Below the pieces are notes generated by a model. The model saw only the letters and a program-made list of their open reading frames with translations, did not search any database and had not been told where the DNA came from. Below are positions 1 to 64,000 of a DNA stretch of 64,000 nt, piece by piece (positions within the stretch are counted from its first letter, which is position 1; each line of letters begins with the position of its first letter). Origin of the DNA: Bilabrum cf. latius (lineage: Eukaryota); contig OZ237764.1 in assembly GCA_965178125.1 (NCBI GenBank), forward strand, positions 558,001 to 622,000. The letters are read 5' to 3'. The position numbers were made by a program, and so were the translations under genes.

Positions 1-3000
1 CGAGAGGATCCGTCCGAGTGGCGAGCGGCAGCCGTTCCAAGCTAGGCGAGCTCTAGGGGCAGGCTCCCCCCTAGAGCCCGGCCCCGAAATCCCCGGGCAA
101 AACCAGAAGACAAGGAAGAGGCGGCGGATTCGTTCGAAGTAGACCGGTCCGGCGCGATGGATCCAGAGGCGGTGGCGGAGACGTCTGGTCTGGACCGCTT
201 CTGGCCCAGCCCATTGGCACCCTTGGCTGCATTCACTTCCTTCTGGATGTAGTCGATCGACAGGAAGGTGCTTTCCAGTGACCTGGACACACTTGGTGTC
301 GGCTTGGAGCTTGCGCCTGCTCTAGATCTAGATCCAGAGGTAGGCTTTGCATCTTTGCGGCTGGTCTTGGAAGACCGAGCCTTGACAGGCTCTCTCGTGG
401 ACTTGACACTCGGGCCGACCTCTGCTTTGCTGCTAGCGAAACCGGCAGACTTGAGGCTGTCATCGGTAGACGACACATGAACACCGCCTGCTGCTGTCCC
501 GTGACCGGCGACAGCCAGGCTGGCAGTTGCTGAGGAGGCGGCCGCTAGCTCGTCGTCAGCGCCGCGCCTGCTTCCCGACGTGCTACCACTATCCGATGTG
601 ACGCACGTGTTTGCGCCATCGCCGAGACGGGCAATGCCTGTCGCTGCCGACAAGGCCGGTACCACTGCAGTCTAGGTTGCTGGAGCGCTCTTCTTTCGGT
701 CGGAAGGTGCGCGCGAAACAGAGTGGCCTGCTTGTGTATCGTTCCTCCCCGTCTTTTTTTGCTTCCCACTCGTTTTCTGCCCTCCAATCAGCGGTGCAAA
801 TGGAATCTCCGCCGCCTGGCGGTCTGGCTGCAACGGCTGGAACTCGGGGGTGGTGGCGGCGATGGCCGCAGCTGCCACCGCGACGGCTTCATTGGCCTTC
901 TTGGCCGAATCGCTCGCGCTAGAACCGCTGGCAGAGGAACCATCGCTTCGTTCGCGCATGGCCCTCTGCAGGATCAAAGAGGCAGACAGCGGACCGCTGG
1001 CATTCGAGCTCGAGGCGGATGCACGAGCCGACCCCCCGCTGTCCCGCTTTCGACTGCTTGCAGCCATTCCACTAGACCTAGCACCCGCACCTACTCTGCT
1101 TCGTGTTGGACTGCCTCTGAGCTCAGAGTGCTTCGAAGGTCTGGCTCTAGGAGTGGCGGAGGCTGGCGTAGCGCGGGCTGTTCCCGGGGAGGACGGTGGC
1201 ACCGGTCGTGACGCAGCCGAGGCGGGGGTACGAGGCCCAGCGACGACCGGCACCGCCCTTGCTCTGGTCATGAGTCCTAGCTACAACTGAGCCTCAAGCC
1301 GTGTCAGCTTGCACTGCCTTGCAGCGTTCAGTGCCATCTGGGAGTGGAGCCCGATCTCGAGTGCGCTTGGCCTGTGCCCGGCTGTGAGGACGATCAGCTC
1401 CTTGAAGTGGAAGATGTAGCTCGATTCGAAGCTGACCGAGTCATTCACGGGACAAGGCTATACGGACTCAGTAGCGGTGGGCAAATCTGCCGAACTTGGC
1501 CGTTCGGCTGCGCTGGAACTCGCCATCGAACCAGCACAAGACGCTCGTCGGTCCCCTTTCCGAGTCCCATTTCTGGCCTTCTGTCTGACCGGACTGCCAG
1601 GAGAACTAGTGTCATCCTCCATGGGCGCCTATCCAGTGCTTTTCCCCAACGTCACTTGACCCTGATTGGTCCGAGTGTACGGGCGGGAAGGGCTTGCTTG
1701 ACTATTTGCGGACTGATCAGATGAGCCTGACTCGTTGGCATGAGCCTGCATCCGCCAGTGCCGGTGCCTAAACAGACCCAAAATCCACCTAATTCCCACC
1801 TCTGACACACCCTACTACCGCAGCCCTCGGGGCTCAAGGAACACGCGACACGGTGCCTCTGGGAGAGACGCTTCAATCCACAGCGCGGTGCCAAACCGAC
1901 CCTTGCTGCCCTCCAGCAGGAACTCGCGCAAGCGATCCCGGGCGGTAGCTGATACCCCAGGCAACGGCTGGATCGCATCGGCTTGACCTGCAGCACGAGA
2001 GGTACCACGGCTTGGAGCTGCATCTGTGTCTTGGCTTGAAGCGGGCGGTCGTCTGTTCTTCTTCTTGCCACCAGCGGGGCGTCGTCGCTTCCGTCCCTGC
2101 ATCGCGACACCCTTAGCTTCGCTTCGTGTAACAGATGCCGAGGCATTGGAGCTTGTGATCCTGGCCGGGCTGTGGCTGGTGCTCGGGATGTGTGCGTTGC
2201 TCGTTTTGTTGGCTGCACTACCCGAGGAGCTGGACACGGCTGCACTGTTGGCTGCACTACCCGAGGAGCTGGACACGGCTGCACTGTTGGCTGCACTACC
2301 CGAGGAGCTGGACACGGCTGCACGCCGGTGGTGTGCCTTGAGTCTCGCCACAACGACACCCGAGCCCATGCTTGAGTCTGACATCGGGTGGGCATCCGTG
2401 TCGGCCACAGAGTCGCTTTCCGCCGTATCGCGCTCTGCAGCTGGCTGCATGGTAGCTGAAAGCTGCTTGGAGGCCCGCTGTTTAGAACCTCTCACGATAG
2501 ATGCCCGGCGACTCGACGACTAGGCCACCTTGCCTTTCCCATCGTTCGCAGTGTCCTCCCAGTCCGAGTCCGACCAATCGTCCGAGTCGTGCAAAAAACC
2601 GATCCGCCTGACCGATTGAGCAACCTACGAGCTGCTGTGCTTCCACGAATTCGCTGACTCTCGTTTCCCAGTGGCACTTGATTTTCTTCTTGCCTTGGCT
2701 TTGCTGTTCTATGGCGCAGGATTGGCGTCCTTCTTGGCCTAGGGACCTTTCGCAGAGTGCAATGGCTTCTCCTTGGCCTACGAGCGTTTCGCAGGCTGCA
2801 GGGGTTTCTGGCTTGCTATCTTGGATAGTACTTTGGCACTCGGCTTGCCACTGGCTGGTGCAGCAGTGCTTTGCACAGTGAGTGATCGCACGGCACGTCT
2901 CTCTGCCCGGCGCCGCCTCCGTTCAGATGACGTCATAGGAGCAGAGCCACCGCCACCGGCATCTTCCCATCGGGCCTCGTCCAGCTACTTGCTAGCAGTC

Positions 3001-4319
3001 GCGGCCGGCACGATGTTAACTATGCCATCCTGCGTGGCACTTGCATTATCCTGTCCGCCTGCGCTAGGGACCCTGCATAGCTGCACGCTTGGCACGCTCA
3101 TCGTGCTTGCACCGCTGCTCGGGGGACTGGAGAGAGGCAAGCCGGCAGCGTTGAAGGAGGCCACAGAGCTGGCACGCGTCGCTCCACTGCTGCGAGCGCC
3201 AACGCTGGGCCGTTTAGCGGCTGCAGAAGCAGCACCAGTACCAGAGGCGGAGGTCGCCGATCCTCTGTGCAACAACGACTTGGGGTTGGTGCGGTTCCGC
3301 TCGTTCAGCTGCCTTGCCTGCTGGCCCATCGTAACTAAATGGCGGATTCTGGCAAAGGTAAGCTGGTCCACTGCGCTACCGCGCGCATCAGAGCTTGATG
3401 GCAACGATGACGAAGATGATGATGGCGATGATGACAGGGCAGGGACGGGGACTTCGGCTGCCGTGGAAGCGATCATGATTTGCACCGCCTGCCTAGGGGA
3501 AATGCGGGCCGATGCCATGACAGCAGCCTGTCGAGGACGCCACCGTCTAGCTCCCTGGGGCTATGACGGCGCGGATGCCTTGGATGCTCGGGGTTGAACG
3601 GGCACCGTCTGCTGGGGGACCGTCTCGGCGGGCCCAGCATCTGGTGGCGGGTCAGTTGAACTCGCGTTGAGAAGCTCAACGCGACGCACCACTTCTGTAT
3701 GACCCTCTACCGTTAGCAGGTGCGATAAATTCGCGCATACGAAAAGCTGGATGTCATTAGCGGCTCCCTGGGCCGCAGGCGATTGTCCTGGCTTCGGCGG
3801 TGAACTCCTCTCTTCCTGCTGCATGAACTCGCGGAGCAGCTCTTGCCAACGGATCTTGCATTCGGAGGATAATCCCTATTCTTGAAGATCCTACCAGTCC
3901 GTGTAGATCGCAAACGATTGCGAGAGGGACCCTCTGCCGCTGAGTCCATTAGGAAACGTGCCTTCCCGAGCGTGAAGCAGGATGGAAGCAAATGCGTCGA
4001 TTCCAGCGAGGCCGTGAGTGATATTGTCGGGACTACCTTCCCTCGGAATTCCATCAGACTCTTTCGGAGGTACCTGCGAAAAGGGAGCCACAGGAGATAT
4101 CACGGTGCACTCGTGGACCGATCCAATCCACTGGAGCCACCAACTGAAAATTAAGCTTACTTTGGCGGCAGCAGACGCGCCTTTATGCGTCGGTAGAGCT
4201 GAGAGACGCACTGGCTGCTTTTTTTCCTGTGAAGATGTACCCAATTTGCAACTTGAGTGCGCATGTGATGGAATCAGCTATTGCTCGCTTTGAAGACACC
4301 CAATGTGAAGTAATACCAT
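1..4319 (-). CDS. Large Ser/Ala/Arg-rich low-complexity hypothetical protein (>1,400 codons, 3' end outside window); requires TAG=sense
   Basis: ORF fragments 3891-4244, 3561-3824, 2985-3518, 1815-2495, 672-1271 and 42-665 share one frame. I found no in-frame TAA/TGA in the gaps. The first ATG after an upstream TGA (4362) is at 4319. Possible in-frame 87-nt intron 4074-4160 (GTAAGC...TTTTCGCAG). No recognisable domain. Confidence 0.7.
2208..2323 (-). repeat. Coding tandem repeat, 39-bp unit x3 (AAVSSSSGSAANS)
   Basis: Three direct copies of ttggctgcactacccgaggagctggacacggctgcac. Confidence 0.9.
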
Positions 4320-4559: not shown

Positions 4560-6794
4560 TCACATCTCCTTGAGCGCGCTGAACTTGGGCCCGTCGGTGT
4601 CGCTCAAGATGCGCGTGGCACCCCACGCCCCGTACCTGCTCCAGTAGCCAGCCAGCGAGAACTGGTGAAGGATGTCAAATACCTCCCCGTAGGTCTTGTA
4701 CCAGTCCAGCATGACCTGGTGCATGCCCTCGTTTGCGTGTGCCAGCAGCACGTTGCTGAGGTCAGTCTTGGTGCCGACCTTCATGCCGGGTCCTGCCTCG
4801 TACGACGTCATCTTGAGACCGAAGGCCTTGCCCACTGCAGCGATGTCCCTCTGGTCCTGGGTCACGTTGTTGGCCGTGAGGCTGTACCCCTTCACGATGT
4901 CATCCACGGATGCCTTGCTGGGCAGGGTCTTGGGGCCAGCAGCGGTCTGGTTGTAGTTGAAGTAGGCAGTGGCAGCGACGCCCCACAGGTACTTTGACGC
5001 AGCCCCCTTGCCGTATGCCGTCTCAAACCAGGTGAGCGTGTCGTTGTAGTGCTGCGGGAAGATGCTCCACTCGGCGTAGATGCCCCTGATCCGGTTGTTG
5101 ATCTCGTTCTCGCCGAAAACCACAGCAAATTCACGCACCGTTTCGTACAGCCTCTGCAGGTGCCTGCGCATGGCTAGCACGTTCTGGTCAGAGCACGGCA
5201 GGGTGCTGTTGGGGTCATTTCTCGAGGGGCAGGGCACGCTGCACATGGGGTCCTTGTTGTCAGTCTGCTTGCACACGTCGAGGGCGTTGAGCTTGTTGTA
5301 CGTGTACTGGGAGAAACCGAAGTTCCAGACCTCGTTGGAGTGCTCAATGTACACGGCCGAGTCCTTGGGCAGCTGGTCATAGAGGAGCTTGGCAGCCTGA
5401 GAGACGTAGGAGCTGCTGTTGCCGCTCCAGCAGCTGCTACCTTGGGGCACCGGCATGCAGGCAGAAGAGGCGCCGACTGGCAGGTTAACCCACACGTCCT
5501 GCCCAAAGGTGCTGGCGTACTTGGCGATCGCGTCCCAGGAGATGCCCCCACCCTGGGGGTTTCCCCTGGGGCTGAAGCTGCGGCTCGAGTCATCGGGGGT
5601 CGTGCGCTGGTACCACTCGATGATGTGGTGACCCGGGTCACCTGCGGGAGTGTAGGTCGCAAGAGTGACGAGTGTAATAGGGTGTGGTGCTGCGAGACAT
5701 TCGATCCATCTGTATTCAGGCCCCATCACTCCATTCAGGCCCCATCACTCTCACCATAGAATCCAGTCTTGTAGTTGGTGTGCAGTGCGCCCATGAACCG
5801 GGCGTGCTTGCATGCCTTGATGCTCTTGATGGCCGCGATGAGGTTGTTAGAGAAGAACTGCCCCGTGCGGATGTCAGCGTCAGCAAACGTGTGGTTCGGG
5901 ACGATGAGGCTGATGTTGCTGATGCCCGAGCCCAGGGGCGCGGTGAGGTTGCGCCTCGTGTCGGTGAAGTTGAGCAGCATCAAGTTCAGCTCGGGGCGCC
6001 ATTTCTCCGAGGGCATGGTGAGGTTGAGGTAGGACCAGTTCGTGTCCTCCTCGTAGGAGAGCTCGCTGAACTGCCAGGCGCAGCCCGCGTTCGGGTCCAC
6101 GATGCAGCTTACGTTGGCGAGTCCCTGGAAGCGCATCTGCCACACGCCAGGGGTCCACTCCCCGATGTGCTGGGGGTCATCCTGCGTGCATGAAACACCC
6201 AAGAAGAAAGAAAACAGCAGGCTGACCCAGGATGTTGTAGCTTGAAAGAAAGGTTGCTGATGGGTGCTCGAATGGGAACAAGCATATCACATGGATGGTT
6301 CTTGAACAAAGAATGTCAATTTCCGTCGCACCGACGATCATGAACTCACCTCAGGAGGTGCCCAGGCAAACGAGGGGCGCATGTCGAATACATCCTGCGA
6401 GTGGTCGCCAGACAAACGAGGTACCACCTTGAAACATTAGGCAGACTTTCCGATATACCACTAGCACAATTCAATTTGATATGATGCGTATCCCTCACTT
6501 GGAAAAAATCTGACATGGGCCAGCCATGCTCGTCCATTGGTGCTACCGCAGACTTGTTCAGAGTTTTCGGCTCGCCCACAGATTTCCACTGGTCTACGAA
6601 TGCCATGTCTCCACCAAACTCCACACCAAGAACTGCAGATCCAAGTGTGTGCTGCGTACACGGACGGAATCAACAGACGTGATGCTGAGCGAGCTGAACC
6701 TTGATGACGCGTAGCACCCAAGCGTACCCGTACCTATCTTTACAGATCTCACGCTTGCACCGGCAAGAAGTACACACGTTAAAAGAGAGCGCAT
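4560..6794 (-). CDS. Secreted protein resembling the bacterial 'cellulose-binding protein' family, putative clan GH-A-like glycoside hydrolase; about 5 exons
   Basis: Signal-like N-terminus MRSLLTCVLLAGAS (ATG 6794). Predicted GT-AG introns: ~6633-6733, from 6498 (acceptor ambiguous), ~6182-6349 and 5642-5754. Motifs AFVDQWK, MDEHGWP, DVWVNLP, VYIEHSNEVWN, SYEAG and SRYGAWG. Ends TGA at 4560. Family call is from remembered motifs, not a search. Confidence 0.7.
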
Positions 6795-6897
6795 ACTATT
6801 GAGCGGTCCTACGCTTGGATTGAAAGTAGAACGTGCTGCAAAGATCGAAGATCGCAGTTCGAACGGCAACTGGAGGCTCCGTCAAGGAGACTTTCGG

Positions 6898-47706: not shown

Positions 47707-50305
47707 CTGCTGCTTGGTGCAGGGCGGCGAGCAATTCTGGCTGCGACGGAGGCCACTCCTTTCCCTTGATCAACGGATGCAACAGTATCGTCTCCTCACA
47801 ACACGTGACCGTCACCGTGGATACTCCTGCTTGCCCCCACAATGTGTGAGCTGTGGCGTGGTCAGCCTTTCCAAGTGCGTCGTTAGCAGCTACCCAAGGC
47901 TTGCTGCGTGGTAGATGCCGTGGAACAAGTGTAATTTTCCTAGAATCCAGGATATCCGCTAGCCTCGTCAGGGTTGCTTGCGTCCTAACTGTGGAGCCCC
48001 TGAAAGTGCACAACTGGACACAAGTTCCAGCGTTATCACAATCCCAATATATTGTAGTCGGAGTGCTTGGTCTGCACTGCAGAGCTGCTCTGAGTGCTCC
48101 CGTTGCTGCTACTATGGTCTCACGGGCTGTTGATGACTTCTCCGGGTCCGTGCTACCTTCCGTTCCCCAAATATCTCGGGGAAGTGGAAACACTAGGGCT
48201 GAACAAATTGGCCTTCCAATACTGATAGCTCCGGTGGATACACTAGCGTCTGAACTGCCGAATATCGAAATGGCGCCAGACTTCGATCCCGGTTTGGCTC
48301 CGAGTCCGCATGCGGCATCCTGGGGATCTGGAGCGCTCCGCTCAGTATTTATACCCAAGAGCTTTGACATCGACGTAGTTGCGTCTCGCATTAGCATCCC
48401 CTGGAGAGTTTGTACTGCTCGCGCTATATCTGGGCGTAGGAATGCGTTGCTGCCGTTCCGTTTGGCTTCGTTTGCCACAACGACGAGTGCCGCACTGCGG
48501 GCCATCTGGCCCCTACTGCCTCCTGCATACGCTAGCGCCTTCCCCTACAGATGTTCCAGTAGGTCAACTGGAATGCGCAGTCGTTGCCTTGATGCCCGCA
48601 TCGTGGCCTTCAACGTGATTGCGAGATCCTTCTGCTTGTCCGGTGGGGCTCGCGCGTCGATCGTAGGTGACGTCGAGATATCCATTCCCAGGAAACGCAT
48701 CTTTTGGCTTGGCAATGTCAGTTTGCTGATGCTCATGCTGAAACCTGCCTGTCGTGCGGTGAGGACGGAGGTGAACATACCCGCCCATGCCGCTGGTGCT
48801 TGTCGTTCTCCCCCGGCGAAATCGTCCATGTATACCGACTGAAGGAAGCGCTTTGCTCGGATGATGTCCGCCAACGACTCGGTGGCTGTCTGTAGATGGA
48901 TGGGCGAGTGCACCATTCCCATCGGCATGCGAAAAAAATGTGCCGCTAGGCCGTTCGCGCTGAACCACGTGAAGTTCCAGGAAGCCGGGTGAGCCTTGAA
49001 GGCATAGAAAGCTTTTGCCACGTCCCAACTATATATCCATGACCCTGGATCCAATTGAGCTGCAAATTCTGCTGGTCCATCTAGCCCAAAATGCAGCTAT
49101 GCTGCATGTGGTCGTAGTCCCGAGAAATCCACGACGAGCCTGGCCTTCTCACTTGGTACTGTGCGTCGCTGCATGCCCACGCCGGGGGTGAGCTTCCAAG
49201 CGTATTTCCGGACCAGAAAGGCTCTCGGCATATCTGATGTTGCCGGTGCCGATGTAACTCGAATGAATCCTGCCTCTGCCTGCTTTCGAATCTCAGTGGA
49301 CAGGGCTGATTGGGTCAAGGTACCCTCGTGCCAGTCGACGTCTCCACCGTCTCGTGGAGCCTTGATCGCTGCGTCAGGCTCGAGGTACCAGTGGAAAGGC
49401 GCGCCATACTTGCCTAAGACGTGCAACACCTCTGCCACCGGACAAAACTGCGCGGTGCAGTCTGAGCATGTAGCTAGATGCATCCAATACAGTTTGTCCC
49501 CACTGTGCACTTGCATGCTCCTCAGTGCGCTGCTCTGCGAGTTCATGCCGCTACGTTGCTCCACAATAGCCCTCTCGGTGTGCTCTGCTCTGGCTCCCTG
49601 ACGGGCTACAAGAGTTCGCTCCTGGGTGGCCTGCTTTACAGCGGACGACTAATTCCTCGAGGCCTCCTCCCGGGTCCCCCCAAGGCTAACTCTAGCATCA
49701 AGGGATGGTCCCGTGGATTTGACAGGCAGTATGAGTCCCCCTTCGCCGTGACCTAGTCGGACCTCTCCTTCTAGTGCGAACGTCGGAGGCACTCTGCCGC
49801 CTTGCTGCTGCTACGTCGGTGCTGATGTTCGTGCTGCTTCCTACTACCGCGGCTGCACTTCGACCTGGCCCTTCTGCGCCTCGCGCTGGGGGTGCTGTCG
49901 TCGCGCCGCTAGTAGATGTTCTGCAAGGGCTCGTGCTCGCCTGGGGGGTGGCGTATGCTCCGCCTCCCGCATGCATCCCAAATCTCGCCGAAGCGCCGCC
50001 CGGAGCCACTACTGGGCTACTCGTGGTGAGCTGGCGCTGATTGCGCGCTTTCTGCAGTCCTTGGCCGAGAATCGTTCCGCTTGATGTTTGTGGCCCCGGG
50101 GTCCCGTTGGGAACAGCCGCAGAAGGTCAATCAGGTCTGGGTCGGGGCCCTCTCTGGGGTGGTCTAGCCATGAGGAGAGTATACGAACGCTGGCTGCTTG
50201 CTGTTTGGGTGATAGCGATTGAAATCCTCTTTGTACACAATCATCCCAAAGCACCCCTGTTCTGATTAGCCGCGCTTTTACTTCGTCCACTCCCCTCGCC
50301 TCCTT
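47546..50305 (-). CDS. pol: Reverse transcriptase + RNase H (pol) of the retrotransposon; first in-frame ATG at 49972
   Basis: Continuous frame with TAG=sense. RT motifs RLVVDF, WDVAKAFY, MPMGMVHSP, VYMDDF and RFLGM. RNase H acidic motifs SDAS, ARE, DCDN and NDAL. Ends TGA at 47546. Confidence 0.92.
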
Positions 50306-51646
50306 TTAGGAGCTGGCCTGGGAATCGCCGTCGTCGTCGCTGTCGTCCGCACCTGCGCCAGACGCCGCGCCTTGACCTGCCTTGACACGATTGTCTTGTC
50401 CCGTGTTCCCGTGCCGGTGGTGCTTGTGCTTCGGCCCGTTTTTCTTCTACCCGCGCTTGCCCCGCCCGCGCTTCTACCCCAGGCGCTGCTGGCCCTGGTG
50501 GTGAGCGCGCTTGGCTGCTTGCATTGCCATTGCCGCGAAGGCCGACTCCGGATGCATCTTCGTGGGGCTGCTGTGAATCTGCATGGCCATTGCTGCACCC
50601 GCTGCAGCTGACGATCCCATTGGCGAGGCGGACGTTGATGTCCCCGAACCGCTGGTTGCGCTGGATGCCGATGACGTGGGCGGGACTCCGCTGCCCGGGT
50701 ATCTGCTCCCGAGCGGCCCAGTGTTCACGTTGAAGTATTGCGCCAGCCATACTGCCAACTAGTGCGGCATCAGGTGATTCTGCCGGTCCATGGTGTCCTG
50801 GCCGCGCCTGGGTGGCTCTGGGAGGAGAGTTGACGGGATGCTACGCAAGAGCAGCTGCATCGTCCCCGCATCGGCTGCAGACAGATCTGGATAGAATCCG
50901 ATCCTAGTGGCGAGCATCAGTTCGACTACCATGCGGCCCAAGCCACAATGTCCACCTTGCATGCTGACGCTCCGAGCAAACCGCTCCTTTACTGCGGCCG
51001 CTGCGCCCTGCACCGATCGAATGAAGGCTCTGGCGGTAATATCCTTGGACTCCGGGTTGCTCAATGTCAAATCCGAGACGTCCTCCTGCACCATTGCGTG
51101 GTGTCCTGCGTACGCATGCCACAGTGCCCGATCCCACGGTGGGAGATCGTCCAGCCCCCGGACTCCTGCACGAGTGACGATAGTGTTCAACCGATCGGCC
51201 GCCTTCACGATCCGATCCCAATCTCCAGCGTGTCCTGCTGCCCTCAGCGCACCTGAAGTACGCTCGCTCAACCGGTGGATGTAGGCGGTTATCGTCGTGG
51301 TCTTGCCCGACCAGACATATGTGTGGGAGTCCGCATCCAGATACAGCGGCAGGAGGTAATTGATAGGACCGACAAGCTACTCCAACACCCAGCTCATTCC
51401 CTGGGGCAGCCAGAGAGTCACACTGGAGTGAGCTGCGCGTACCGCGGTATCACTTGCCTTAGGCTGGTACTGTGTGCCTGCCAGCACCCGATGTCCGAAA
51501 TCCATACGGGCAGTTTTCAGCTTGTCGCCCAAGTCGTGAAGGGTCGTACGAAGGGCGTGAGCGACGACCGCCTGCAGGCGGTACGTAGGCCATCTCTAAG
51601 CTTTTGCAGGTGCGCTCGCTGCGCTCCCCGCAGCCCCGCCCCAGAA

Positions 51647-51686
<40 letters not shown>

Positions 51687-52876
51687 GCTGCCCCTGACGA
51701 TGCTCCCGCAGGGTTCATCAGTGTTGACGTGAGTTCCCTCACGGCCATTTTACCGATTTCCTTCATGAGCTCCTCGTCCTTTGGCAGAATCGACTGGAAC
51801 AGGTCATCCACCTTACCAGCTAGAAATATTCCTATCTTCTAGTCCGGGAGAACGTCGGCGAGCGTCTTTAAGATCCGAGCCGTGCGTTGGCGCCCGTCCC
51901 CCGTCTTGCACTCCTCACGCATGGCATCCAGCCGCGGAACCCACCATGCGACAATGGCGTTAGCACGATGTAGAACATCACCTGCTGCGCTCCACGCCGC
52001 CTTCTCCTGCGTGATGAACTGGGTCGCCGCGTCGTCGGTCGTGGGCCAAGCTGTTGGCGGGAGCTTCTGGACCTGCTCGACCTCGTCAGCCTCTGCATCG
52101 ACGTCATCGGGGTCCTCTCCAGGAGCTTCCCCATCTGCATCGTCTTGTTCTTCTCCCAGGGCCTGTGTCGCGTTTTGTTCGTTTACCACGGCTGCGATCG
52201 CCTTCGCAAGCACGTGGTCCGGGTAGCTGTCCTGCTATTCCAACTTCTCAGTCGTAAGTCGCCACCCCCAATTAGAGGCGAAACGTGTCATTGACAGCAG
52301 AGATGTCCGTTTGGCCGCTCGCAGCGGACCATACGCGGACTGCAACACTGCTGCAGCTCGTAGTAGTTGATGTAGGAGCCCACCGCCCGCAGACGTTGTG
52401 AGGACCGCAAACCATCCAGCTGCACCTGTTGACAGCTGCGCTCCTTCCTAAGCAGGGAAGTTACGCTTGCAGTCGTGCAAAACTCGTTTCAGCTCCTCCT
52501 TGGTAGGACGATGAGGTAATTTCACGTACAGTGAAATCACCCATGCCGTGGCCGTCATCAGGACTGCCCGTTTCTTCTGGTTGTCGTCCATTCCCACCGA
52601 CAGTAAGGTCTTAAAGTCATTACCCAGACCGTTTGCTGTTGCCGTGTCCATTGGTTTGTCGCCCGCTGCTTGGTTGCTGATAGCCTCGATGAACCCAGCA
52701 TGACCTCCGGCGCCCATTGCTGTTTCCATCCATGCTTCCCAGGATTCACCAACGCAATTATCCAGAATATTTGCGGATTCTTGCTTTGCGATAGCAATCA
52801 ATGCCTTGTGCGGCTAGGAACCTTGAAGATGCGATAGAGCCGCTGCAGCCTGTGTGCCCTGCTCCACCTGGGCCAT
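50306..52876 (-). CDS. ORF1 (Gag-like by position, ~856 aa) of the retrotransposon
   Basis: ATG 52876 lies 30 nt after repeat A1. Fragments 52448, 51839, 51596, 50759 and 50474 are in frame with TAG breaks only. Basic Lys/Arg/His-rich C-terminal segment. Ends TAA 50306-50308. No zinc knuckle recognised. Confidence 0.8.
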
Positions 52877-52906
52877 ATTTCACAGTGAAGTCACGCGCAC
52901 TTTTCC

Positions 52907-53080
52907 GAAAACTTTTTGCAAGCCGACTCAGAACTACAATATCCTGTAGTACGTGTCTTATTGAGCTCGGCCGAGACCACTGTACTCGGCGTACCCTCGG
53001 GAAGATGAGTCGAGCTTCACGCAAATCAATCCCAGTTTCTACAGTTCCGGTCTTACTGGTTGTAACCCCAGACCTGCTAA
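52907..53080 (-). repeat. Split direct repeat A1 (5' terminus of element), 174 bp
   Basis: Identical by eye to 46170-46343. Confidence 0.95.
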
Positions 53081-56385: not shown

Positions 56386-57534
56386 TCAGAATCCCACACC
56401 AGCTATCGACCCGCCCTCCACGCCCTCCACAAACGCACACAAATCAAAACAACTAGGCACCACACCACCAGACCCTCCCGCACCAGCCTTGTAACCAGCC
56501 TATGCGATGGATGCCCCACCAGCCCCGCCATCACCAGCCCCGCCATCACCAGCCCCGCCCCCCAGCACGAACTTCACCTGCCGAGGCACGTCCAGCACGA
56601 CCACCCGCACCGAATCATCACCGTCCTCGTCCCGCACCCAGGCCTTGTCGCACGCCATCCGCACCTCGTCCGCAGCCGTGTCGTCCTCGGGCCCCGCCAA
56701 GAAGAAGCGCGTCTGCCCCTCCGCCCCCCTCGTCACGTCGAACCGCCCACTGGCCACCTCCTCCAGCGCAGAGCGGAGTTTCTCCGATTTCTCCGCGTCC
56801 GTCAGCCTGTCCGCAAGCACCACCACGCAGCGGGTGCTGTTCAGCGCGCTGCCCGCACTCCGCAGCGGCGCCACTGGAGCCAGCCACGGGAACTGCGCGG
56901 CGCCCGTCTCTGGTTCCGCAGCGATGGACTTGGCGTTGTGGTGCACCATCCGGCCCGTGGGCGCGTGGATGATGGTGAGCTGCGGAATCTTCTGCACCCT
57001 GCACGCCAGAGCCAGTTGCTGGCTCACGGCCCCAGCACCCGGCCCCGCTTCACCGCCGTCTGCGTCAAACCGCAGCATGGGGAAGGGCATGGTCCCGGCG
57101 TACTCCTCCGTCTGGCCCCTGTCCGTGTCCGCCGACACGAAGATCACCTCGGACCCGGGCCGGATCGGCTCGTCGGACTTGCTCTCCTCCTCCTCCTTGG
57201 CTTCCTGCTCGGCCCCTGACGCTGCCCCGGCTCCAGAGGCGGCTCCAGCCTCGGCATCGGCCGGCGACGCAGCCTTCTTCGGTGCGGAACCGGCGCCGCG
57301 CGATCCGATCGTTACGATCGCGGGGTACATGCCCGCCAGCCTGGGAGTGAAGGTCTTGCACGGCTTGCAGAAGGCAGCGCTGAAGTACAGAGCCACGTAC
57401 TCGCTGCGAGCGCACACCTCCTGTAGCGTCTCTTCTCTCCCGTCCTTGTGCTGGATGACGGCGTCTTTGCGGCGAGCGATCTGGGCGAAGGTGGGCCGGC
57501 TGCAGGGGAAGTTCAGTCCGGCGGGATCATCCAT
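56386..57534 (-). CDS. Nucleoredoxin/tryparedoxin-like thioredoxin-fold protein, copy 1
   Basis: YVALYFSAAFCKPCKTFTPRL, EVIFVSAD, MPF, KIPQLTII and FPW. Reading through TAG 56500 gives the same GGSIAGVGF-TGA end as copy 2. Confidence 0.85.
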
Positions 57535-57698
57535 GACTTCGGTGCGTTCCGTTTTGCTTCAGCCTCTTGTTTTGCCTTTTGCCAATCACGCGACTGTTGC
57601 GTTCGATTCATGGAGATTCTTGTTTATTCTAGAAACTGCATCGGATTGGCCAGCGTGTACTTCAGGGCTCGAGCTGAAGCCAAATCTTGTGCGGCTCC

Positions 57699-60029
57699 AT
57701 GCAAACGGTACTGGTAAAGATGGCGGCTGTTGCTGCATTCTTGCTAGTGATGCTAGTGGTCGCTCCTGCAGCTGTGGCCGAAGAGCAAGGAGATTCGTTG
57801 ATGCTGCGGCATGATACAATGGTACAGCGGCCTGTTGGTATTTCGAAAGCCGCCAGGAACTTCATGAAGAGGGAGCAAAAGAGACGATCTGGCTAGAAAG
57901 GGAGGCGCAAGCAGGAAACCTAGCCTTCGGGCGGTCAATCGAGTAAGATCCCAGCCCAAGGTAGCACAGTCCATTCAGTGCTGAAAGTCGGCATGATTTA
58001 TGCATGGCCGCAGACCTTATCGGTTGAGGTAAGTGGCAAACTAGAGCACATCGACATGGGTGTCAAGGTCGGCATGACCAGCGATCGTTTCGAGCTTGAC
58101 AAGCTCGATCCGGACAGCCTGGTCCTAGCCACCCAAGTCGGATTCGGTGCAGAGGCAGCACAGGCTGCCGGCAGTGCGTCATTCAAGCCATACATCACTC
58201 AGGTATCGTCCAAAGATCCGCCGATTGCCGCTGTGGCCGGAAGCTCGGGTCCCAGCGTCGATTCATAGGGCGCTGGGAGCAAGGCCCAGTCTGGCTAGCC
58301 TTCCGGTGCTGTTGATTCTGCGAGTCAATCCGGCACGTTAAAATCTTCATCCTCTTCCGGTGCTTCGCGCGAGCCGACGTCCACCAGCTCCAGCGCTTGT
58401 GCTTAGAAGCCAGCCGCTGGGTTGGAGTTCCCATCCGATGGCACCGGCGCAGTGGGCTCTGGTGCTGGATAGGACAAGGCTTCGACGGCAACTGGAGGGG
58501 CAGCCACCGCGGCCCATAGTGAGCATACCTTGCCTGCCGGTGCATCTGTCGGTCCCTCAGTGCCCATGAGCGGGGCATCGGCGAGTGCTTCCTACCAGCA
58601 GTCCCCAGGTGGTGCCAAGGATCGACAGAAGATCTGGAGCGGCTTCCTCGAACTGAGCCACAGGGTTCTATCGCGCGCTCTGGACACGCTTGCGAGTGGG
58701 AATCCCGCCATCCTCAACTTCTGGCGTGAGGAAGTGCAGGGGGACGAGGGATCAGTCGTGTCATCCGATGGCTCGTCCACGGGGTCATCGCCACACAAGA
58801 AGCCGAGGCAAGAAGACCTCGCCGGGGACGGTTCGGATGGTGAGGACGGTGACCATGACCAGCAAGCCAGTGGTGGCGCGGCTTCCAAAGCAGGGGTGCC
58901 CGAAGCCGGCTACCCGCTCAGGATGGTGATGCCGCCCGTCGACGCGGACCAGCTCATCAGTTCACTCACGAGGATCACCAAGATGTCCACTCTGCTCGTG
59001 AGCATGGACCACTTCTTCGCAGCGCATGTCCTGGTAGATGCAGGGCAACGTGCCGGGTCTGCATTGGCGATCCCTGAGCCACTTGATGCGGGCAAGGTGG
59101 AGGAGTCATCCAAGGTTGCCCTGGACAGTGCCAGCGATGTGCTTGCCAAGGCTCGTACCAGCGATTCGTTGGATGTAGTGCAGCGATTCTTGTCGCGGTT
59201 CCCAGACTCGGATGGGGAGACGCATAGCGGACCAGCAAGGTCGGCCGAGCCCAGCGGGAGCATGGCAATGGCATCCGGGCCGGCGTCAGGGTCTGGTGCA
59301 GCAGAACTAGACCCATCGTCTGGCGCGAAGCGTCCTCGCACGATTGCAGTGCGTGGTGGCAAGGTCGAGCATCCAGCCGGGCAGCCGATGCACTACTCGC
59401 ATGGCGCGCAGACTGTGGAGAAGATAGCCCACCTGAACCTGCAAGCATTCGGGCTGGTGAAGCTGGGCTCCCTTGCTGGCACGACTGAGACATTCATACC
59501 TCTGGTACATGTCACTTCTGGGATGACGACTGCCGACCTGAGATCACGTATCACGACTGCAATTGATGCCGTGAAAGATGACGCGAAAGTGTTTGCAGTT
59601 CTGCTGGACCATGATTCGTTCTCAAAGATTATGCGTGAGGTGTACGCATTCAAGCAGAAGCTGGCCCCTGGTTGGCGCGCCGGAGGGATCGATCGTTCCA
59701 AGCTGAACCAAGACTACATTGCCCATTTGCGCGCTGCACTGACCGAAGCCATGGAGACCTGCCAATGGGTGGCTCTTTTGGATTCTTTGGTGGACGTGGG
59801 CGAGATCGCGATTCGCCTGGCGGAGCTGGGTGTTGTCGTGAACATGCGACCAGCAGAGGGCCAAGAATGGCTCAAGACCTTCACGCCGTCCAAATTGCAA
59901 GACTTCAACGAGATGGACTTGACTCCAGCACCCGATGAAGACGAAATAGCGATTGAGGCTGTGACATGGGCAGGCCCAATTCACTATGCGCACCACATGC
60001 TCCTGCTTAGAGACTGCCCGATGAATTGA
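57699..60029 (+). CDS. Hypothetical protein, copy 1 (start uncertain, 57699-57993); requires TAG=sense
   Basis: 57687-57896, 57978-58268 and 58530-60029 are in one frame with only TAG breaks. Ends TGA. No domain recognised. Confidence 0.65.
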
Positions 60030-60042
60030 AGCGTTTGTCGTA

Positions 60043-61237
60043 TCATACTTGCTGCCTGCTTCTGACACCCATCAACACACTCACGCAGTCCGCATGGCCT
60101 CCCGCCCTTGCTGCTTCCAGCACGTCCATAGCCACACCATCCACCACCTAGGTCACCCACGCCCCACCAGCCAACTTGCCAAGCCTCAGCCGCTTCTCCA
60201 GCTCCATGGGCCTCCCCTCCCTCGCAGCCTGAAACACCATCGAGGCATCCCTGTGCGCCTCATGTGCCCGCCGCCACCGCACCAGCTGGTCCCCCCGTCT
60301 GGGATCCAGGTGCTTCACACGAGCCAGCTCCCCTGCGGGCACTAGCTCAAAAAGCTTGCCCAGCACCTCCCGGGGCCTGGCTCCCCGCTTGCTGCTGTAC
60401 AGAGCTTTAGGCACCGGCAAATGCTCCGTCATGCTCCCGTACGACTTGTGCGATTCCGTTTCCCTGCATGCCACATCCAGCCACGTCGCACCGGTCTCGC
60501 TGTCTAGCCCTTGTTGGTACACCCTTGACCCCCAGTGCAGGAGGATCGCGAGAGAGGCAGCTGATTTCTCATCGCATGCTTGCCGTGCAGCATACACTAC
60601 TACAGCTTGCCGCTTCCGACGAAGCCAGAATCTCAAGATCTCTTCATGCGTTACAGACTACCAACCTGTATCCAGGGTACCGGCTCGACACATATACTCG
60701 AGGGATTGCAATGCACCATGGCGTATGAATCTCGTAACCAGTGGCACTTGTTTCTGCGTGATATCGATCAATGCAAGCTCACAGTGAATCACTCATTGAA
60801 CTTTCACTATCCAAGGCAGGACACTAGCATAACATGAGGCACGGGGTAGACTTCTTGCTCACACATCGCAATCTTGCAGACTTGGACAGAGCTCGCTACA
60901 GCACTGCAGGGCGATCGAACGCTCCAAGTGCACCAGTTATACTCATAAACTGCGTGAAAGGAAGACACTCTGTGTTGCAATGAACCATGGCGACGATGTG
61001 CTGTGCCTATCTTGACTAGAGTTGCATCGTGCTCACTCTGTGGAGCTCGCCATCGAGTGTTAAGTTCCTGGGCCAATGTGTCCTGCATAGCTTCGTGTCA
61101 TACTGATCGAATAATGCAATGGCGACGGCATCATTGCGATCATTCAAGGCTTGAAGAAAGCGCCTTTTCAATGCTGCCCACTCCCTGCAACCAATAAAAC
61201 TGAAGATTGTAGCAGAAATCTCAATCAGGAATGATAC
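60043..61237 (-). CDS. Hypothetical helical/ankyrin-like protein, copy 2 (5' structure unresolved)
   Basis: ORF 60148-60636 reads through TAG 60148 into VVDGVAMDVLEAARAGGHADCVSVLM...QQV-TGA (60043). The 5' coordinate is approximate, set by homology to copy 1. Confidence 0.5.
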
Positions 61238-61558: not shown

Positions 61559-62722
61559 TCAGAATCCCACACCAGCTATCGACCCGCCCTCCACGCCCTC
61601 CACAAACGCACTCAAATCGAAACTACTTGGCACTTCTACACCACCAGACCCTCCCGCACCAGCCTTGCAACCAGCCGATGCACCGGATGACCCGCCAGCC
61701 CCACCATCACCAGCCCCACCATCACCAGCCCCGCCATCACCCGCCCCGCCCCCCAGCACGAACTTCACCTGCCGAGACACATCCAGCACGACCACCCGCA
61801 CCGAATCATCACCGTCCCCGTCCCGCACCCACGCCTTGTCGCACGCCATCCGCACCTCGTCAGCAGCCGTGTCGTCCTCGGGCCCCGCGAAGAAGAAGCG
61901 CGTCTGCCCCTCCGCCCCCCTCGTCACGTCGAACCGCCGACTGGCCACCTCCTCCAGCGCAGAGCGGAGTTTCTCCGATTTCTCCGCGTCCGTCAGCTTG
62001 TCCGCAAGCACCACCACGCAGCGGGTGCTGTTCAGCGCGCTGCCCGCACTCCGCAGCGGCGCCACCGGAGCCAGCCACGGGAACTGCGCGGCGCCCGTCT
62101 CTGGTTCCGCAGCGATGGACTTGGCGTTGCGGTGCACCATCCGGCCCGTGGGCGCGTGGAGGATGGTGAGCTGCGGAATCTTCTGCACCCTGCACGCCAG
62201 GGCCAGCTGCTGGCTCACGGCCCCGGCACCCGCCCCCGCATCGCCGCCGTCTGCGTCAAACCGCAGCATGGGGAAGGGCATGGTCCCGGCGTACTCCTCC
62301 GTCTGGCCCCTGTCCGTGTCCGCCGACACGAAGATCACCTCGGACCCGGGCCGGATTGGCTCGTCGGACTTGCTCTCCTCCTCCTTGGCTTCCTGCTCGG
62401 CCCCTGACGCTGCCCCGGCTCCAGAGGCGGCTCCAGCCTCGGCATCGGCCGGCGACGCAGCCTTCTCCAGTGCGGAACCGGCGCCGTGCGATCCGATCAT
62501 AGCGATGGCGGGATACATGCGCGCCAGCCGGGCAGTGAAGGTCTTGCACGGCTTGCAGAAGGCAGCGCTGAAGTACAGAGCCACGTACTCGCTGCGAGCG
62601 CACACCTCCTGTAGCGTCTCTTCTCTCCCGTCCTTGTGCTGGATGACGGCGTCTTTGCGGCGAGCGATCTGGGCGAAGGTGGGCCGGCTGCAGGGGAAGT
62701 TCAGTCCGGCGGGATCATCCAT
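61559..62722 (-). CDS. Nucleoredoxin/tryparedoxin-like thioredoxin-fold protein, copy 2 (387 aa)
   Basis: Uninterrupted ORF, FCKPC motif, ends TGA. TPRL of copy 1 is TARL here. Confidence 0.85.
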   Translation of the reverse strand: MDDPAGLNFPCSRPTFAQIARRKDAVIQHKDGREETLQEVCARSEYVALYFSAAFCKPCKTFTARLARMYPAIAMIGSHGAGSALEKAASPADAEAGAASGAGAASGAEQEAKEEESKSDEPIRPGSEVIFVSADTDRGQTEEYAGTMPFPMLRFDADGGDAGAGAGAVSQQLALACRVQKIPQLTILHAPTGRMVHRNAKSIAAEPETGAAQFPWLAPVAPLRSAGSALNSTRCVVVLADKLTDAEKSEKLRSALEEVASRRFDVTRGAEGQTRFFFAGPEDDTAADEVRMACDKAWVRDGDGDDSVRVVVLDVSRQVKFVLGGGAGDGGAGDGGAGDGGAGGSSGASAGCKAGAGGSGGVEVPSSFDLSAFVEGVEGGSIAGVGF

Positions 62723-62945
62723 GACTTTGGTGTGTTCCGTTTTGCTTCAGCCTCTTGTTTTGCCTTTCAGCTTCTGAGGTCGGCAGGGCTCAGGCGGGTC
62801 CAATCACATATGAACGAAGACCCTTTTGCCAATCACGCGACTGTTGCGTTCGATTCATGGAGATTCTGGTTTATTCTAGAAACTGCATCGGATTGGCCAG
62901 CGTGTACTTCAGGGCTCAAGCTGAAGCCAAATCTGGTGCGGCTCC

Positions 62946-64000
62946 ATGCAAACGGTACTGGTAAAGATGGCGGCTGTTGCTGCATTCTTGCTAGTGATGC
63001 TAGTGGTCGCTCCTGCAGCTGTGGCCGAAGAGCAAGGAGATTCGTTGATGCTGCGGCATGATACCATGGTACAGCGGCCTGTTGGTATTCCGAAAGCCGC
63101 CAGGAACTTCTAAAAGAGGGAGCAAAAGAGACGAGCTGGCTAGAAAGGGAGGCGCAAGCAAGGAACCTAGCCTTCGGGCGGTCAATCGAGTAAGATCTCA
63201 GCCCAAGGTAGCACAGTCCATTCAGTGCTGAAAGTCGGCATGATTTATGCATGGCCGCAGACCTTATCGATTGAGGTAAGTGGCAAACTAGAGCACATCG
63301 ACATGGGTGTCAAGGTTGGCATGACCAGCGATCGTTTCGAGCTTGACAAGCTCGATCCGGACAGCCTGGTCCTAGCCACTCAAGTCGGATTCGGTGCAGA
63401 GGCAGCACAGGCTGCCGGCAGTGCGTCATTCAAGCCATACATCACTCAGGTATCGTCCAAAGATCCGCCGATTGCCGCTGTGGCCGGAAGCTCGGGTCTC
63501 AGCGTCGATTCATAGGGCGCTGGGAGCAAGGCCCAGTCTGGCTAGCCTTCCGGTGCTGTTGATTCTGCGGGTCAATCCGGCACGTTAAAATCTTCATCCT
63601 CTTCCGGTGCTTCGCGCGAGCCGACGTCCACCAGCTCCAGCGCTTGTGCTTAGAAGCCAGCCGCTGGAGCGGAGTTCCCATCCGATGGCACCGGCGCAGT
63701 GGGCTCTGGTGCTGGATAGGACAAGGCTTCGACGGCAACTGGAGGGGCAGCCACCGCGGCCCATAGTGAGCATACCTTGCCTGCCGGTGCATCTGTCGGT
63801 CCCTCAGTGCCCATGAGCGGGGCATCGGCGAGTGCTTCCTACCAGCAGTCCCCAGGTGGTGCCAAGGATGGACAGAAGATCTGGAGCGGCTTCCTCGAAC
63901 TGAGCCACAGGGTTCTATCGCGCGCTCTGGGCACGCTTGCGAGTGGGAATCCCGCCATCCTTAACTTCTGGCGCGAGGAAGTGCAGGGGGACGAGGGATC
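62946..64000 (+). CDS. Hypothetical protein, copy 2 (partial; in-frame TAA at 63111 if the upstream start is used)
   Basis: Near-identical to 57699-58753; runs off the window end. Confidence 0.5.

What the first reader, a model, noticed from the sequence alone, without database searches (positions are those of the whole stretch)
1..64000. UAA behaves differently from UAG, and every traceable host gene ends in UGA
Seen: host stops at 4560, 13197, 13680, 32836, 32956, 40915, 56386, 60027, 60043 and 61559 are all TGA. TAG is frequent in these frames and CAA is in ordinary use, yet I found no in-frame TAA in the host CDSs except one candidate at 63111. The TAA terminators seen all lie within the retrotransposon (50306, 46573, and 52758 for the disrupted host frame). 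Inference: this is not the ciliate-type UAR=Gln code. UAA is either a rarely used (possibly leaky) stop or a nearly unused codon. Decoupling of UAG from UAA is known in only a few eukaryotes.
Basis: partly seen in the sequence, partly recalled or inferred. Interest (0 to 1): 0.8.

Follow-up and report, generated by a model that had tools for sequence, protein, structure and literature searches.

The report
UAG codes glutamine; UAA does not
This GC-rich eukaryote reads the stop codon UAG as an amino acid, most likely glutamine, but never uses UAA inside genes, and this split between the two codons is known from only a handful of eukaryotes.

Summary
In 11 curated host coding regions (15,730 codons) there are 122 in-frame TAG, 0 in-frame TAA and 10 TGA, all terminal. 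If TAA were synonymous with TAG, 36-70 TAA would be expected (P<1e-14), so the ciliate-type UAR=Gln code is excluded for this window.

Spliced contigs from other public runs show GT..AG introns. Long contigs cover 23 of the in-frame TAGs of the giant gene unchanged.

TAG most likely means glutamine. All four comparisons in conserved sequence pair TAG with CAA or Q.

All 10 host stops are TGA (9 independent). That is only suggestive: P=0.03-0.11 if TAA made up 20-30% of stops.

A young DIRS-like retroelement that itself holds 17 in-frame TAG ends two of its three reading frames in TAA. This is the only positive sign that TAA still terminates.

Best reading: a table-15-like code (UAG=Gln; UGA the main stop, UAA a minor one). 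The rival, that UAA is effectively unassigned or leaky, stays open.

The organism could not be named, and no tRNA or eRF1 gene lies in the window.

The parts
3..4073 (-). G1: large exon of a gene that runs off the window. It holds 16 in-frame TAG and no TAA. Introns lie at 4074-4160 and 4227-4330.
   Evidence: ORF and counts; CT..AC joints, which are GT..AG on the minus strand
4560..6810 (-). G2: secreted, glycoside-hydrolase-like gene of 5 exons (583 codons spliced). It has no TAG and no TAA. Its stop is TGA at 4560-4562.
   Evidence: four joints; GT..AG, spliced frame open; homologues end 5-19 residues after its C-terminus, one 103; 0 TAG among 23 Gln-type codons
7732..13199 (+). G3: long exon with 16 in-frame TAG. 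Its stop is TGA at 13197-13199. An intron lies at 7563-7731.
13680..27155 (-). G4: 4,491-codon open frame (beta-helix, Cys-rich and multi-TM protein) with 32 in-frame TAG and 0 TAA. Its stop is TGA at 13680-13682.
   Evidence: (an X6 contig at 13357-23999 and an X7 contig at 13345-17501 lie on it with no differing letters)
28261..32838 (+). G5: kinase plus ARM-repeat protein with 16 in-frame TAG. Its stop is TGA at 32836-32838.
32956..40779 (-). G6: FG-GAP-like, Ser-rich membrane protein with 24 in-frame TAG. Its stop is TGA at 32956-32958.
40915..45463 (-). G7: 3' part of a paralogous FG-GAP gene that the retroelement interrupts. It holds 9 in-frame TAG and ends in TGA at 40915-40917. The 5' part of the gene lies at about 53081-53990.
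45464..53080 (-). DIRS-like retroelement with split direct repeats (46170-46343 = 52907-53080 at 100%; 45464-45618 = 46343-46497 at 99%). Its reading frames are a gag-like ORF at 52879-50306 ending in TAA, an RT ORF at 50305-47546 in the same frame ending in TGA, and a tyrosine-recombinase-like ORF at 47769-46573 ending in TAA. Together they hold 17 in-frame TAG.
50306..50308 (-). TAA between the gag-like ORF and the RT ORF, in frame with both. No ATG follows for 113 codons.
46573..46575 (-). TAA ending the recombinase-like ORF, 26 codons after its YYLG motif.
56386..57558 (-). G8: thioredoxin-like gene with 1 in-frame TAG (the paralogue has TCG there). It ends in TGA.
57678..60029 (+). G9: secreted protein with 6 in-frame TAG. 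It ends in TGA at 60027-60029.
60043..60792 (-). G10: 249-codon gene with 2 in-frame TAG. It ends in TGA at 60043-60045.
61559..62746 (-). G11: second copy of the thioredoxin-like gene, with no TAG. It ends in TGA.
62925..63998 (+). G12: second copy of G9, running off the window. It holds the single candidate in-frame TAA at 63111-63113, where copy 1 has ATG, and 6 TAG shared with copy 1.

Best explanation
The window comes from the nuclear genome of a GC-rich eukaryote with spliceosomal introns.

Shown: UAG has been reassigned from stop to sense, UAA is not a sense codon, and UGA ends every host gene seen.

Supported by a small sample: UAG encodes glutamine.

Inferred mechanism: a tRNA-Gln with anticodon CUA reads UAG only, because C34 does not wobble to A. 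The release factor eRF1 has lost UAG recognition but keeps UGA and at least some UAA recognition. UAA therefore remains a terminator that host genes rarely choose. This is the table-15 type of code (UAG=Gln; UAA and UGA stop), here with UGA strongly preferred rather than UAA.

The resident DIRS-like retroelement has adapted to this code: it carries in-frame TAG and closes two ORFs with TAA.
For: 1. TAG is sense.
- 122 in-frame TAG lie in 15,730 host codons, in frames that stay open for up to 4,491 codons.
- Contigs of runs X6, X7 and X8 carry 7 GT..AG joints, so they hold spliced forms. Contigs of X6 (13357-23999) and X7 (13345-17501) lie on G4 with no differing letters across 23 and 10 of its in-frame TAG.

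2. TAA is not synonymous with TAG.
- There are 0 in-frame TAA against 36-70 expected, while the off-frames hold 57 and 60.
- ORF bounds are unchanged when TAA is read through.

3. TAG is Gln.
- CAA in G6 aligns with TAG in G7 inside a block where the other 19 of 20 residues are identical.
- P0050 (76% identical) has Q and Q where both window paralogues have TAG and TAG in TSVzLLzVACG.
- P0057 (70% identical) ends ...LLVIVQ and then a standard stop, where the window has ...LLAIV-TAG-TAG.
- At one non-conserved TAG column, relatives have T and N, both polar. MMLV RT has D opposite a retroelement TAG.

4. UGA terminates.
- 10 of 10 host ORFs end in TGA.
- For G2 the TGA agrees with the C-termini of 12 homologues: 11 run on 5-19 residues and one 103.

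5. UAA terminates.
- The retroelement has 100% and 99% identical terminal repeats, so it is young, and holds 17 in-frame TAG.
- Its gag-like and recombinase-like ORFs end in TAA.
Against: - No host gene in the window ends in TAA (0 of 10). Downstream of the real stops, the next in-frame TAA or TGA is TAA in 6 of 9 cases (Fisher p=0.003). UGA preference therefore exceeds local composition, and UAA may not be a normal host terminator.
- The gag TAA is in frame with the RT ORF, and no ATG follows for 113 codons. This fits a leaky UAA, or a nonsense mutation in this copy, as well as it fits a true stop.
- The Gln assignment rests on 4 positions only.
- No tRNA gene lies in the window and no eRF1, so the mechanism is inference.
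- The last TAG lies within 39 codons of the TGA in 6 of 10 genes (P=0.022). That could mean some TAG also terminate. For G8 and G10, however, the tails after the TAG are conserved in paralogues.
- X6 is flagged 'probably DNA' by the tool, so its long contig may not be RNA.
Confidence: 0.6

Rival explanations
1. UGA is the only working terminator and UAA is effectively unassigned. eRF1 has lost most recognition of both UAR codons, as in UGA-only ciliates, but only a tRNA(CUA) exists. UAA is therefore neither decoded nor efficiently terminated, and it is purged from both coding sequence and stop positions. The retroelement exploits slow termination at UAA to make a Gag-Pol fusion.
For: - 0 of 10 host stops are TAA, although TAA makes up 32% of TAA+TGA in non-coding DNA and 6 of the 9 next in-frame stops (Fisher p=0.003).
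- The gag-like ORF and the RT ORF are joined in frame by a single TAA, with 113 codons lacking ATG after it.
- A TAA sits in frame in G12, a 99% identical copy of G9.
Against: - The sample is only 9 independent stops. P(0) is 0.03-0.13 at a 20-32% TAA share (0.8^9 to 0.68^9, my arithmetic from the shares).
- The recombinase-like ORF ends plausibly at TAA, 26 codons after its catalytic-Tyr motif.
- No stimulatory structure follows the gag TAA (z=0.11).
- G12's TAA sits in a duplicate with many non-synonymous changes and may simply be a nonsense mutation.
Confidence: 0.25
2. The ciliate-type code 6 (UAA and UAG both Gln) applies, with UAA almost unused only because of GC pressure.
For: UGA ends every host ORF. 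One in-frame TAA candidate exists at 63111 and one between the gag-like and RT ORFs.
Against: - A-ending partners are in normal use: CAA 30%, GAA 34%, AAA 33%, TTA 21% of their pairs.
- 36-70 TAA are expected and 0 are seen in host CDS; P is 1e-14 or lower.
- TAA is common in the off-frames (57 and 60).
Confidence: 0.03
3. UAG has a dual meaning: sense inside genes, and also a terminator near transcript ends (a context-dependent code). Some of the TGAs counted as stops would then merely follow the true UAG stop. This can hold together with the best explanation.
For: - In 6 of 10 genes the last TAG lies within 39 codons of the TGA (P=0.022), and in G7 only 4 codons before it.
- The relative P0051 ends at ...SFGW, while the window reads ...SFGWH-TAG and then 11 more codons.
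- Copy A' of G10 loses similarity to its paralogue just after a TAG.
Against: - The tails after the last TAG of G8 and G10 are conserved in paralogues that have TCG or GGG instead of TAG.
- The tails mostly have coding-like GC of 0.55-0.69.
- If the tails were 3' UTR, their closing stop should often be TAA, as in 6 of 9 control cases, yet all six are TGA.
Confidence: 0.08
4. TAG encodes an amino acid other than Gln, for example Leu as in the rhizarian exLh or Glu as in some ciliates.
For: Close paralogue pairs also show TAG opposite TCG, GGG, GTG and AGC. Neighbour-composition and hydropathy analyses could not discriminate between residues.
Against: - All four comparisons in conserved context give Gln.
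- The other pairings lie in poorly conserved or low-complexity stretches.
- The remaining aligned residues are polar: T, N and D.
Confidence: 0.08

Closest known systems
Iotanema spirale (Fornicata) nuclear code: UAG=Gln, with UAA and UGA as stops (PMC5304391, passages read; PMC9161772, passages read)
   Same: Only UAG is reassigned, and to Gln. There is no in-frame UAA or UGA. It is a non-ciliate eukaryote.
   Different: In I. spirale UAA is the predominant terminator. Here 10 of 10 host stops are UGA, and UAA appears only at retroelement ORF ends. Whether the eRF1 GTS-to-GGS change reported there occurs here cannot be checked.
Rhizarian exLh nuclear code: UAG=Leu (PMC5304391)
   Same: UAG is decoupled from UAA. 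UAG is never a stop, and UAA and UGA terminate (56 and 15 cases reported there).
   Different: The residue there is Leu, whereas here 4 of 4 conserved-context comparisons give Gln. UAA is the main stop there.
Phyllopharyngean ciliates with UAG-only reassignment, including UAG=Gln (translation table 15) in Hartmannula sinica and Trochilia petrani (PMC11687900, passages read)
   Same: The formal code is the same: UAG=Gln, with UAA and UGA as stops.
   Different: In those ciliates 93.5-100% of C-terminal alignments end at UAA. This window shows long genes, GT..AG introns of 87-169 nt, a DIRS-like element and UGA stops.
Code 6 lineages (UAR=Gln): many ciliates, Ulvophyceae, Hexamita, Streblomastix, Amoeboaphelidium protococcarum (listed in PMC11687900, and PMC5304391)
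   Same: UAG=Gln, and UGA is the terminator seen.
   Different: UAA is also Gln there. Here in-frame UAA is absent against 36-70 expected.
Oligohymenophorea sp. PL0344, where UAA and UAG encode different amino acids (PMC10553269; title and abstract start only, from the search listings)
   Same: UAA and UAG are decoupled, with UGA as the remaining stop.
   Different: There both codons are sense. Here UAA is not used as sense.

Membership tests
Table-15-type nuclear code (UAG=Gln; UAA and UGA stop) | UAG occurs in frame inside coding sequences | tested here: met
   122 in-frame TAG lie in 15,730 host codons. Contigs of X6 and X7 cover 23 and 10 of G4's TAG unchanged, and the same runs carry spliced joints.
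Table-15-type nuclear code (UAG=Gln; UAA and UGA stop) | UAG aligns with Gln at conserved positions of homologues | tested here: met
   4 of 4 conserved-context positions give CAA or Q. The sample is small. One non-conserved column shows T and N.
Table-15-type nuclear code (UAG=Gln; UAA and UGA stop) | No in-frame UAA or UGA in coding sequence | tested here: met
   There are 0 TAA, and the only TGAs are the 10 terminal ones. One unresolved TAA lies in the duplicate G12.
Table-15-type nuclear code (UAG=Gln; UAA and UGA stop) | UAA serves as a terminator of host genes | tested here: inconclusive
   0 of 10 host stops are TAA. 2 of 3 retroelement ORFs end in TAA. P(0 of 10) is 0.03-0.11 at a 20-30% share.
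Table-15-type nuclear code (UAG=Gln; UAA and UGA stop) | A tRNA-Gln with anticodon CUA is present, none with UUA, and eRF1 is altered in its N-domain motifs | not testable with these tools
   There is no tRNA in the window, no Rfam match, no genome held and no eRF1 gene in the window.
Code 6 (UAA and UAG = Gln) | In-frame UAA is used as a Gln codon alongside UAG | tested here: not met
   0 TAA against 36-70 expected; P is 1e-14 or lower.
Context-dependent stop/sense codes (Condylostoma or Blastocrithidia type) | The codon used as terminator also occurs in frame as sense | tested here: not met
   There is no in-frame TGA in 15,730 codons. Dual use of TAG is not excluded.
DIRS-order tyrosine-recombinase retroelement | A reverse transcriptase domain | tested here: met
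   Pfam RVT_1 gives E=4.3e-6 and 27.0 bits, below the curated 29.6. PDB foamy-virus and MMLV RTs give E=0.0013-0.02 with the YMDD region aligned. The match is weak but consistent.
DIRS-order tyrosine-recombinase retroelement | A tyrosine recombinase instead of a DDE integrase | tested here: inconclusive
   Pfam Phage_integrase gives E=3.9e-4 and 20.7 bits, below the curated 27.1.
DIRS-order tyrosine-recombinase retroelement | Split direct or inverted terminal repeats rather than simple LTRs | tested here: met
   The repeats follow the pattern A1...B1A2...B2: 52907-53080 = 46170-46343 (100%) and 46343-46497 = 45464-45618 (99%). That this layout is typical of Ngaro/PAT-like elements is recalled, not checked against a paper.

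The most novel reading that the evidence does not exclude
UGA is the sole efficient terminator and UAA is a codon in limbo. No cognate tRNA decodes it and eRF1 recognises it poorly, so host genes have purged it from both sense and stop positions. A resident retroelement uses this leaky UAA as a built-in Gag/Gag-Pol ratio switch. This would be a living intermediate between the standard code and code 6, reached by the UAG-first route.
Probability: 0.2. Interest if true: 0.85.

Novelty: new member of a known kind. Interest (0 to 1): 0.62.

Why it matters
UAG and UAA almost always change meaning together. The papers I read passages of describe UAG-only reassignment in one fornicate, one uncultured rhizarian and some phyllopharyngean ciliates.

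A further, GC-rich, intron-bearing lineage would be an independent natural experiment on how eRF1 and tRNAs tell UAG from UAA. It has a public genome and apparently transcript data, and at least one relative breaks standard-code ORFs at the same TAG positions.

It also uses UGA where the known cases use UAA. That allows a test of whether UAA can become functionally unassigned on the way to code 6.

In practice, any annotation of this genome with the standard code or with code 6 will be wrong: the standard code cuts giant genes into fragments, and code 6 reads through real TAA stops.

I could not name the organism, so its code may already be described. My searches of the held library found no such report for a GC-rich non-ciliate.

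Tried and rejected
- **Whole genome:** none is held, so tRNA, eRF1 and genome-wide stop counts were impossible.
- **The look-up of sequencing runs:** no RNA holder listed. Organisms and studies are coded and I did not try to decode them.
- **Uncovered parts:** these are not used as evidence.
- **Metagenome scans:** scans with the RT ORF and with the ARM C-terminal alignment found no relative (0 loci each). No further DNA of this organism or its kin could be read.
- **The search for homologous proteins on the RT region:** no hit at E<=1e-5.
- **Taxon guesses:**
  - Amoeboaphelidium, reported as UAR=Gln, was rejected because its genomes are about 40% GC (Table 1 of PMC10608142) against 60% here.
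  - Amoebophrya ex Karlodinium was rejected because its recoded sequences are AT-rich and UGA is also read as Trp.
  - The ESM Atlas and the homologue list of G2 gave no usable taxon.
- **TAG identity from context:** neighbour composition and hydropathy could not discriminate between residues.
- **Readthrough signal after the gag TAA:** folding shows no better-than-shuffled structure (z=0.11).
- **Rfam and tRNA scans:** both empty.
- **Untested recollection:** I recalled that the residue before the G of the RT 'LxG' motif is usually hydrophobic, which would argue against Gln at the TAG in LLEHL-TAG-GK. The PDB alignments did not reach that column, so it is given no weight.
- **Supplementary tables:** those of the code papers (stop-codon tallies) are closed and were not seen. 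They could refine the comparison of stop usage.

Full report
**What the window is.** The window is 60% GC, with no tRNA and no Rfam family. Read with TAG as sense, it resolves into a few very long open frames on both strands: 13680-27155 (4,491 codons), 32956-40779, 7458-13199, 28261-32838, 40915-45495 and others. Reading TAA through as well (table 6) leaves the bounds of all these frames unchanged. So the absence of in-frame TAA in them is an observation, not an assumption.

**Evidence from other public runs.** Contigs of other public runs laid on 4000-23999 carry seven joints with GT..AG ends. These are 4074-4160, 4227-4330, 5642-5754, 6182-6349, 6395-6498 and 6652-6752 on the minus strand, and 7563-7731 on the plus strand (bounds refined). 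This is therefore a eukaryote with spliceosomal introns of 87-169 nt that cluster at the 5' ends of genes.
- The same runs give contigs lying on the giant gene G4 with no differing letters. X6 covers 13357-23999, spanning 23 of its 32 in-frame TAG. X7 covers 13345-17501, spanning 10 (with TAG positions).
- The kind of these runs is not on record. The tool guesses RNA for X7 and X8 and 'probably DNA' for X6. The spliced joints show that they hold processed forms.
- X6 and X7 contigs begin at 13357 and 13345, while an X5 contig runs on across that place. This is a weak hint of a transcript end about 330 nt after the TGA at 13680.

**The observation.** Two of them belong to copies of one duplicated gene, so nine are independent.
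- A curated set of 11 host coding regions has 15,730 codons: TAG 122, TAA 0, TGA 10 (all terminal), CAA 156, CAG 379.
- The two off-frames of the same DNA hold 57 and 60 TAA.
- The broader set of 13 ORFs gives 137 TAG in 16,981 codons, with one terminal TAA.
- A-ending codons are in ordinary use: CAA 30%, GAA 34%, AAA 33% and TTA 21% of their pairs. If TAA were synonymous with TAG, 36-70 TAA would be expected, and P(0) is 1e-14 or lower.
- Code 6 is therefore excluded for these genes.

**What TAG encodes.** Context statistics could not tell. Homology could, at a few sites.
- In a block shared by the paralogues G6 and G7 (KANVTGSM?FVLIDGAGIRD), G6 has CAA and G7 has TAG. The other 19 residues are identical and most of their codons are too.
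- A 121-residue protein from another assembly (P0050, 76% identical) reads TSVQLLQVACG where both window paralogues read TSV-TAG-LL-TAG-VACG.
- A 55-residue fragment (P0057, 70% identical to G5) ends ...AKALLVIVQ and is then cut by a standard stop. The window reads ...AKALLAIV-TAG-TAG-VDIGG.
- That makes 4 of 4 conserved-context positions Gln.
- At a non-conserved TAG column of G5, two relatives have T and N. Opposite a TAG of the retroelement RT, MMLV RT has D.
- Less conserved paralogue pairs also show TAG opposite TCG, GGG, GTG and AGC, so the assignment is probable rather than proven.
- P0050 and P0051 each come from a contig of 7,363 nt. That would fit one syntenic contig of a relative, but I could not read it.
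- These standard-code ORF calls are short fragments, and P0057 ends exactly at a window TAG. This suggests the relative also reads TAG as sense.

**What UGA and UAA do.** UGA terminates. For the five-exon gene G2 (583 codons spliced), the TGA falls where the homologues end: of 12 aligned, 11 run on by 5-19 residues and one by 103. For UAA the window gives three kinds of evidence.
1. UAA is never in frame in host genes.
2. UAA is never the host stop (0 of 10).
   - By composition this is not compelling. TAA is 20% of TAA+TGA in the whole window and 32% in the 7.6 kb of non-coding DNA, giving P(0 of 10) of 0.107 to about 0.02.
   - A local control is sharper. Downstream of the real stops, the next in-frame TAA or TGA is TAA in 6 cases, TGA in 3 and absent within 50 codons in 1. 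Fisher's test gives p=0.003, or 0.009 without the duplicate.
   - Host genes thus appear to prefer UGA beyond what composition gives, but nine independent genes cannot show that UAA is never used.
3. The retroelement uses TAA at ORF ends, as described next.

**The retroelement.** The element at 45464-53080 (minus strand) has split direct repeats that are 100% and 99% identical, so it is young.
- It has an RT that matches weakly but consistently: Pfam RVT_1 at E=4.3e-6, below the curated cut-off, and PDB RTs at E=0.0013-0.02.
- It has a recombinase-like ORF: Pfam Phage_integrase at E=3.9e-4, below the cut-off.
- It carries 17 in-frame TAG, so it is adapted to the host code.
- Its gag-like ORF ends in TAA (50306), its RT ORF in TGA (47546) and its recombinase-like ORF in TAA (46573), 26 codons after the YYLG motif.
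- This is the only positive evidence that UAA still terminates.
- The gag TAA is in frame with the RT ORF, and 113 codons without ATG follow it. That invites a readthrough reading, but the downstream RNA folds no better than shuffles (z=0.11). With a single copy I cannot exclude a recent nonsense mutation.

**The TAA at 63111.** This TAA lies in G12, the second copy of G9 (99% identical DNA). It aligns with ATG as three adjacent changed bases. The two copies differ by many non-synonymous changes, so a disabled duplicate is as likely as sense use.

**A caveat on UAG.** In 6 of 10 genes the last TAG lies within 39 codons of the TGA (P=0.022), and in G7 only 4 codons before it.
- This could mean that some TAG also terminate.
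- Against that, the tails of G8 and G10 are conserved in paralogues that carry TCG or GGG instead of TAG, and the tails mostly have coding-like GC.
- All six tails close with TGA, whereas chance stops in the 3' UTRs are mostly TAA.
- I leave this unexplained.

**Mechanism (inferred).** A tRNA-Gln with anticodon CUA would read UAG but not UAA. eRF1 would have to stop recognising UAG while keeping UGA. Whether it keeps full UAA recognition decides between the best explanation (UAA a minor stop) and the main rival (UAA functionally unassigned or leaky). Neither gene is in the window and no genome is held.

**Comparison with known codes.** From passages read in PMC5304391, PMC9161772 and PMC11687900:
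- UAG-only reassignment is known in Iotanema spirale (Gln, with UAA the main stop).
- It is known in the rhizarian exLh (Leu; 56 UAA and 15 UGA stops reported).
- It is known in some phyllopharyngean ciliates (Leu or Gln, with more than 90% UAA stops).
- In PL0344, known to me only from the listing abstract, both codons are sense with different meanings.

This window matches the table-15 type in three defining features. It differs in stop usage: UGA here, UAA there.

**Novelty and limits.** Five literature searches found no GC-rich non-ciliate with this code. I could not name the organism, and papers outside the held library were not searched.

Noticed in passing
45464-53080 (-): A young DIRS-like retroelement lies here, with split direct repeats (A1...B1A2...B2) that are 100% and 99% identical. 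It is inserted in an FG-GAP gene, whose 5' part is at about 53081-53990 and whose 3' part is at 40915-45463.
   Followed up: partly
50306-50308 (-): A single TAA joins the gag-like ORF and the RT ORF in frame, making 1,777 codons if read through. No ATG occurs for 113 codons after it, and the downstream RNA shows no structure better than shuffles.
   Followed up: partly
54900-60029 and 60043-64000: A tandem segmental duplication of about 5.2 kb carries three genes: a 249-codon gene, a thioredoxin-like gene and a secreted protein. In copy 2 of the secreted protein, TAA replaces ATG as a cluster of three changed bases (63111).
   Followed up: partly
4560-6810 (-): G2 has the highest contig depth on the laid stretch, though the tool warns that depth cannot rank genes. 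It has 0 TAG among 23 Gln-type codons, against 18.6% TAG overall (P=0.009). TAG may be avoided in strongly expressed genes.
   Followed up: partly
whole window, host CDS: TAG codons cluster with each other. TAG makes up 2.6% of the codons within two positions of a TAG, against 0.78% background, and there are several TAG-TAG doublets.
   Followed up: no
3' ends of G3, G4, G5, G7, G8, G10: The last in-frame TAG lies within 39 codons of the TGA in 6 of 10 genes (P=0.022). This is unexplained.
   Followed up: partly
54000-54905 (-): About 300 codons of lower-GC, apparently non-coding sequence lie between copy A' of G10 and the FG-GAP 5' part. They stay free of TAA and TGA in one frame while holding 6 TAG. 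The end of A' is unclear, because similarity to its paralogue fades just after a TAG.
   Followed up: partly
32836-32958: The convergent genes G5 and G6 have stop codons only 117 nt apart, so their 3' UTRs must be very short or must overlap.
   Followed up: no
proteins P0050, P0051, P0052, P0057: Other public assemblies hold short standard-code ORF fragments that are 53-76% identical to G5 and G6. P0057 ends exactly at a window TAG. P0050 and P0051 each come from a 7,363-nt contig. This suggests a related organism with the same code and perhaps the same gene order.
   Followed up: partly
introns at 4074-4160, 4227-4330, 5642-5754, 6182-6349, 6395-6498, 6652-6752, 7563-7731: Six of the seven introns begin GTGAG (one GTAAG) and five end CGCAG (two CACAG). 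They are 87-169 nt long and lie near the 5' ends of genes. The long 3' exons have no introns.
   Followed up: partly
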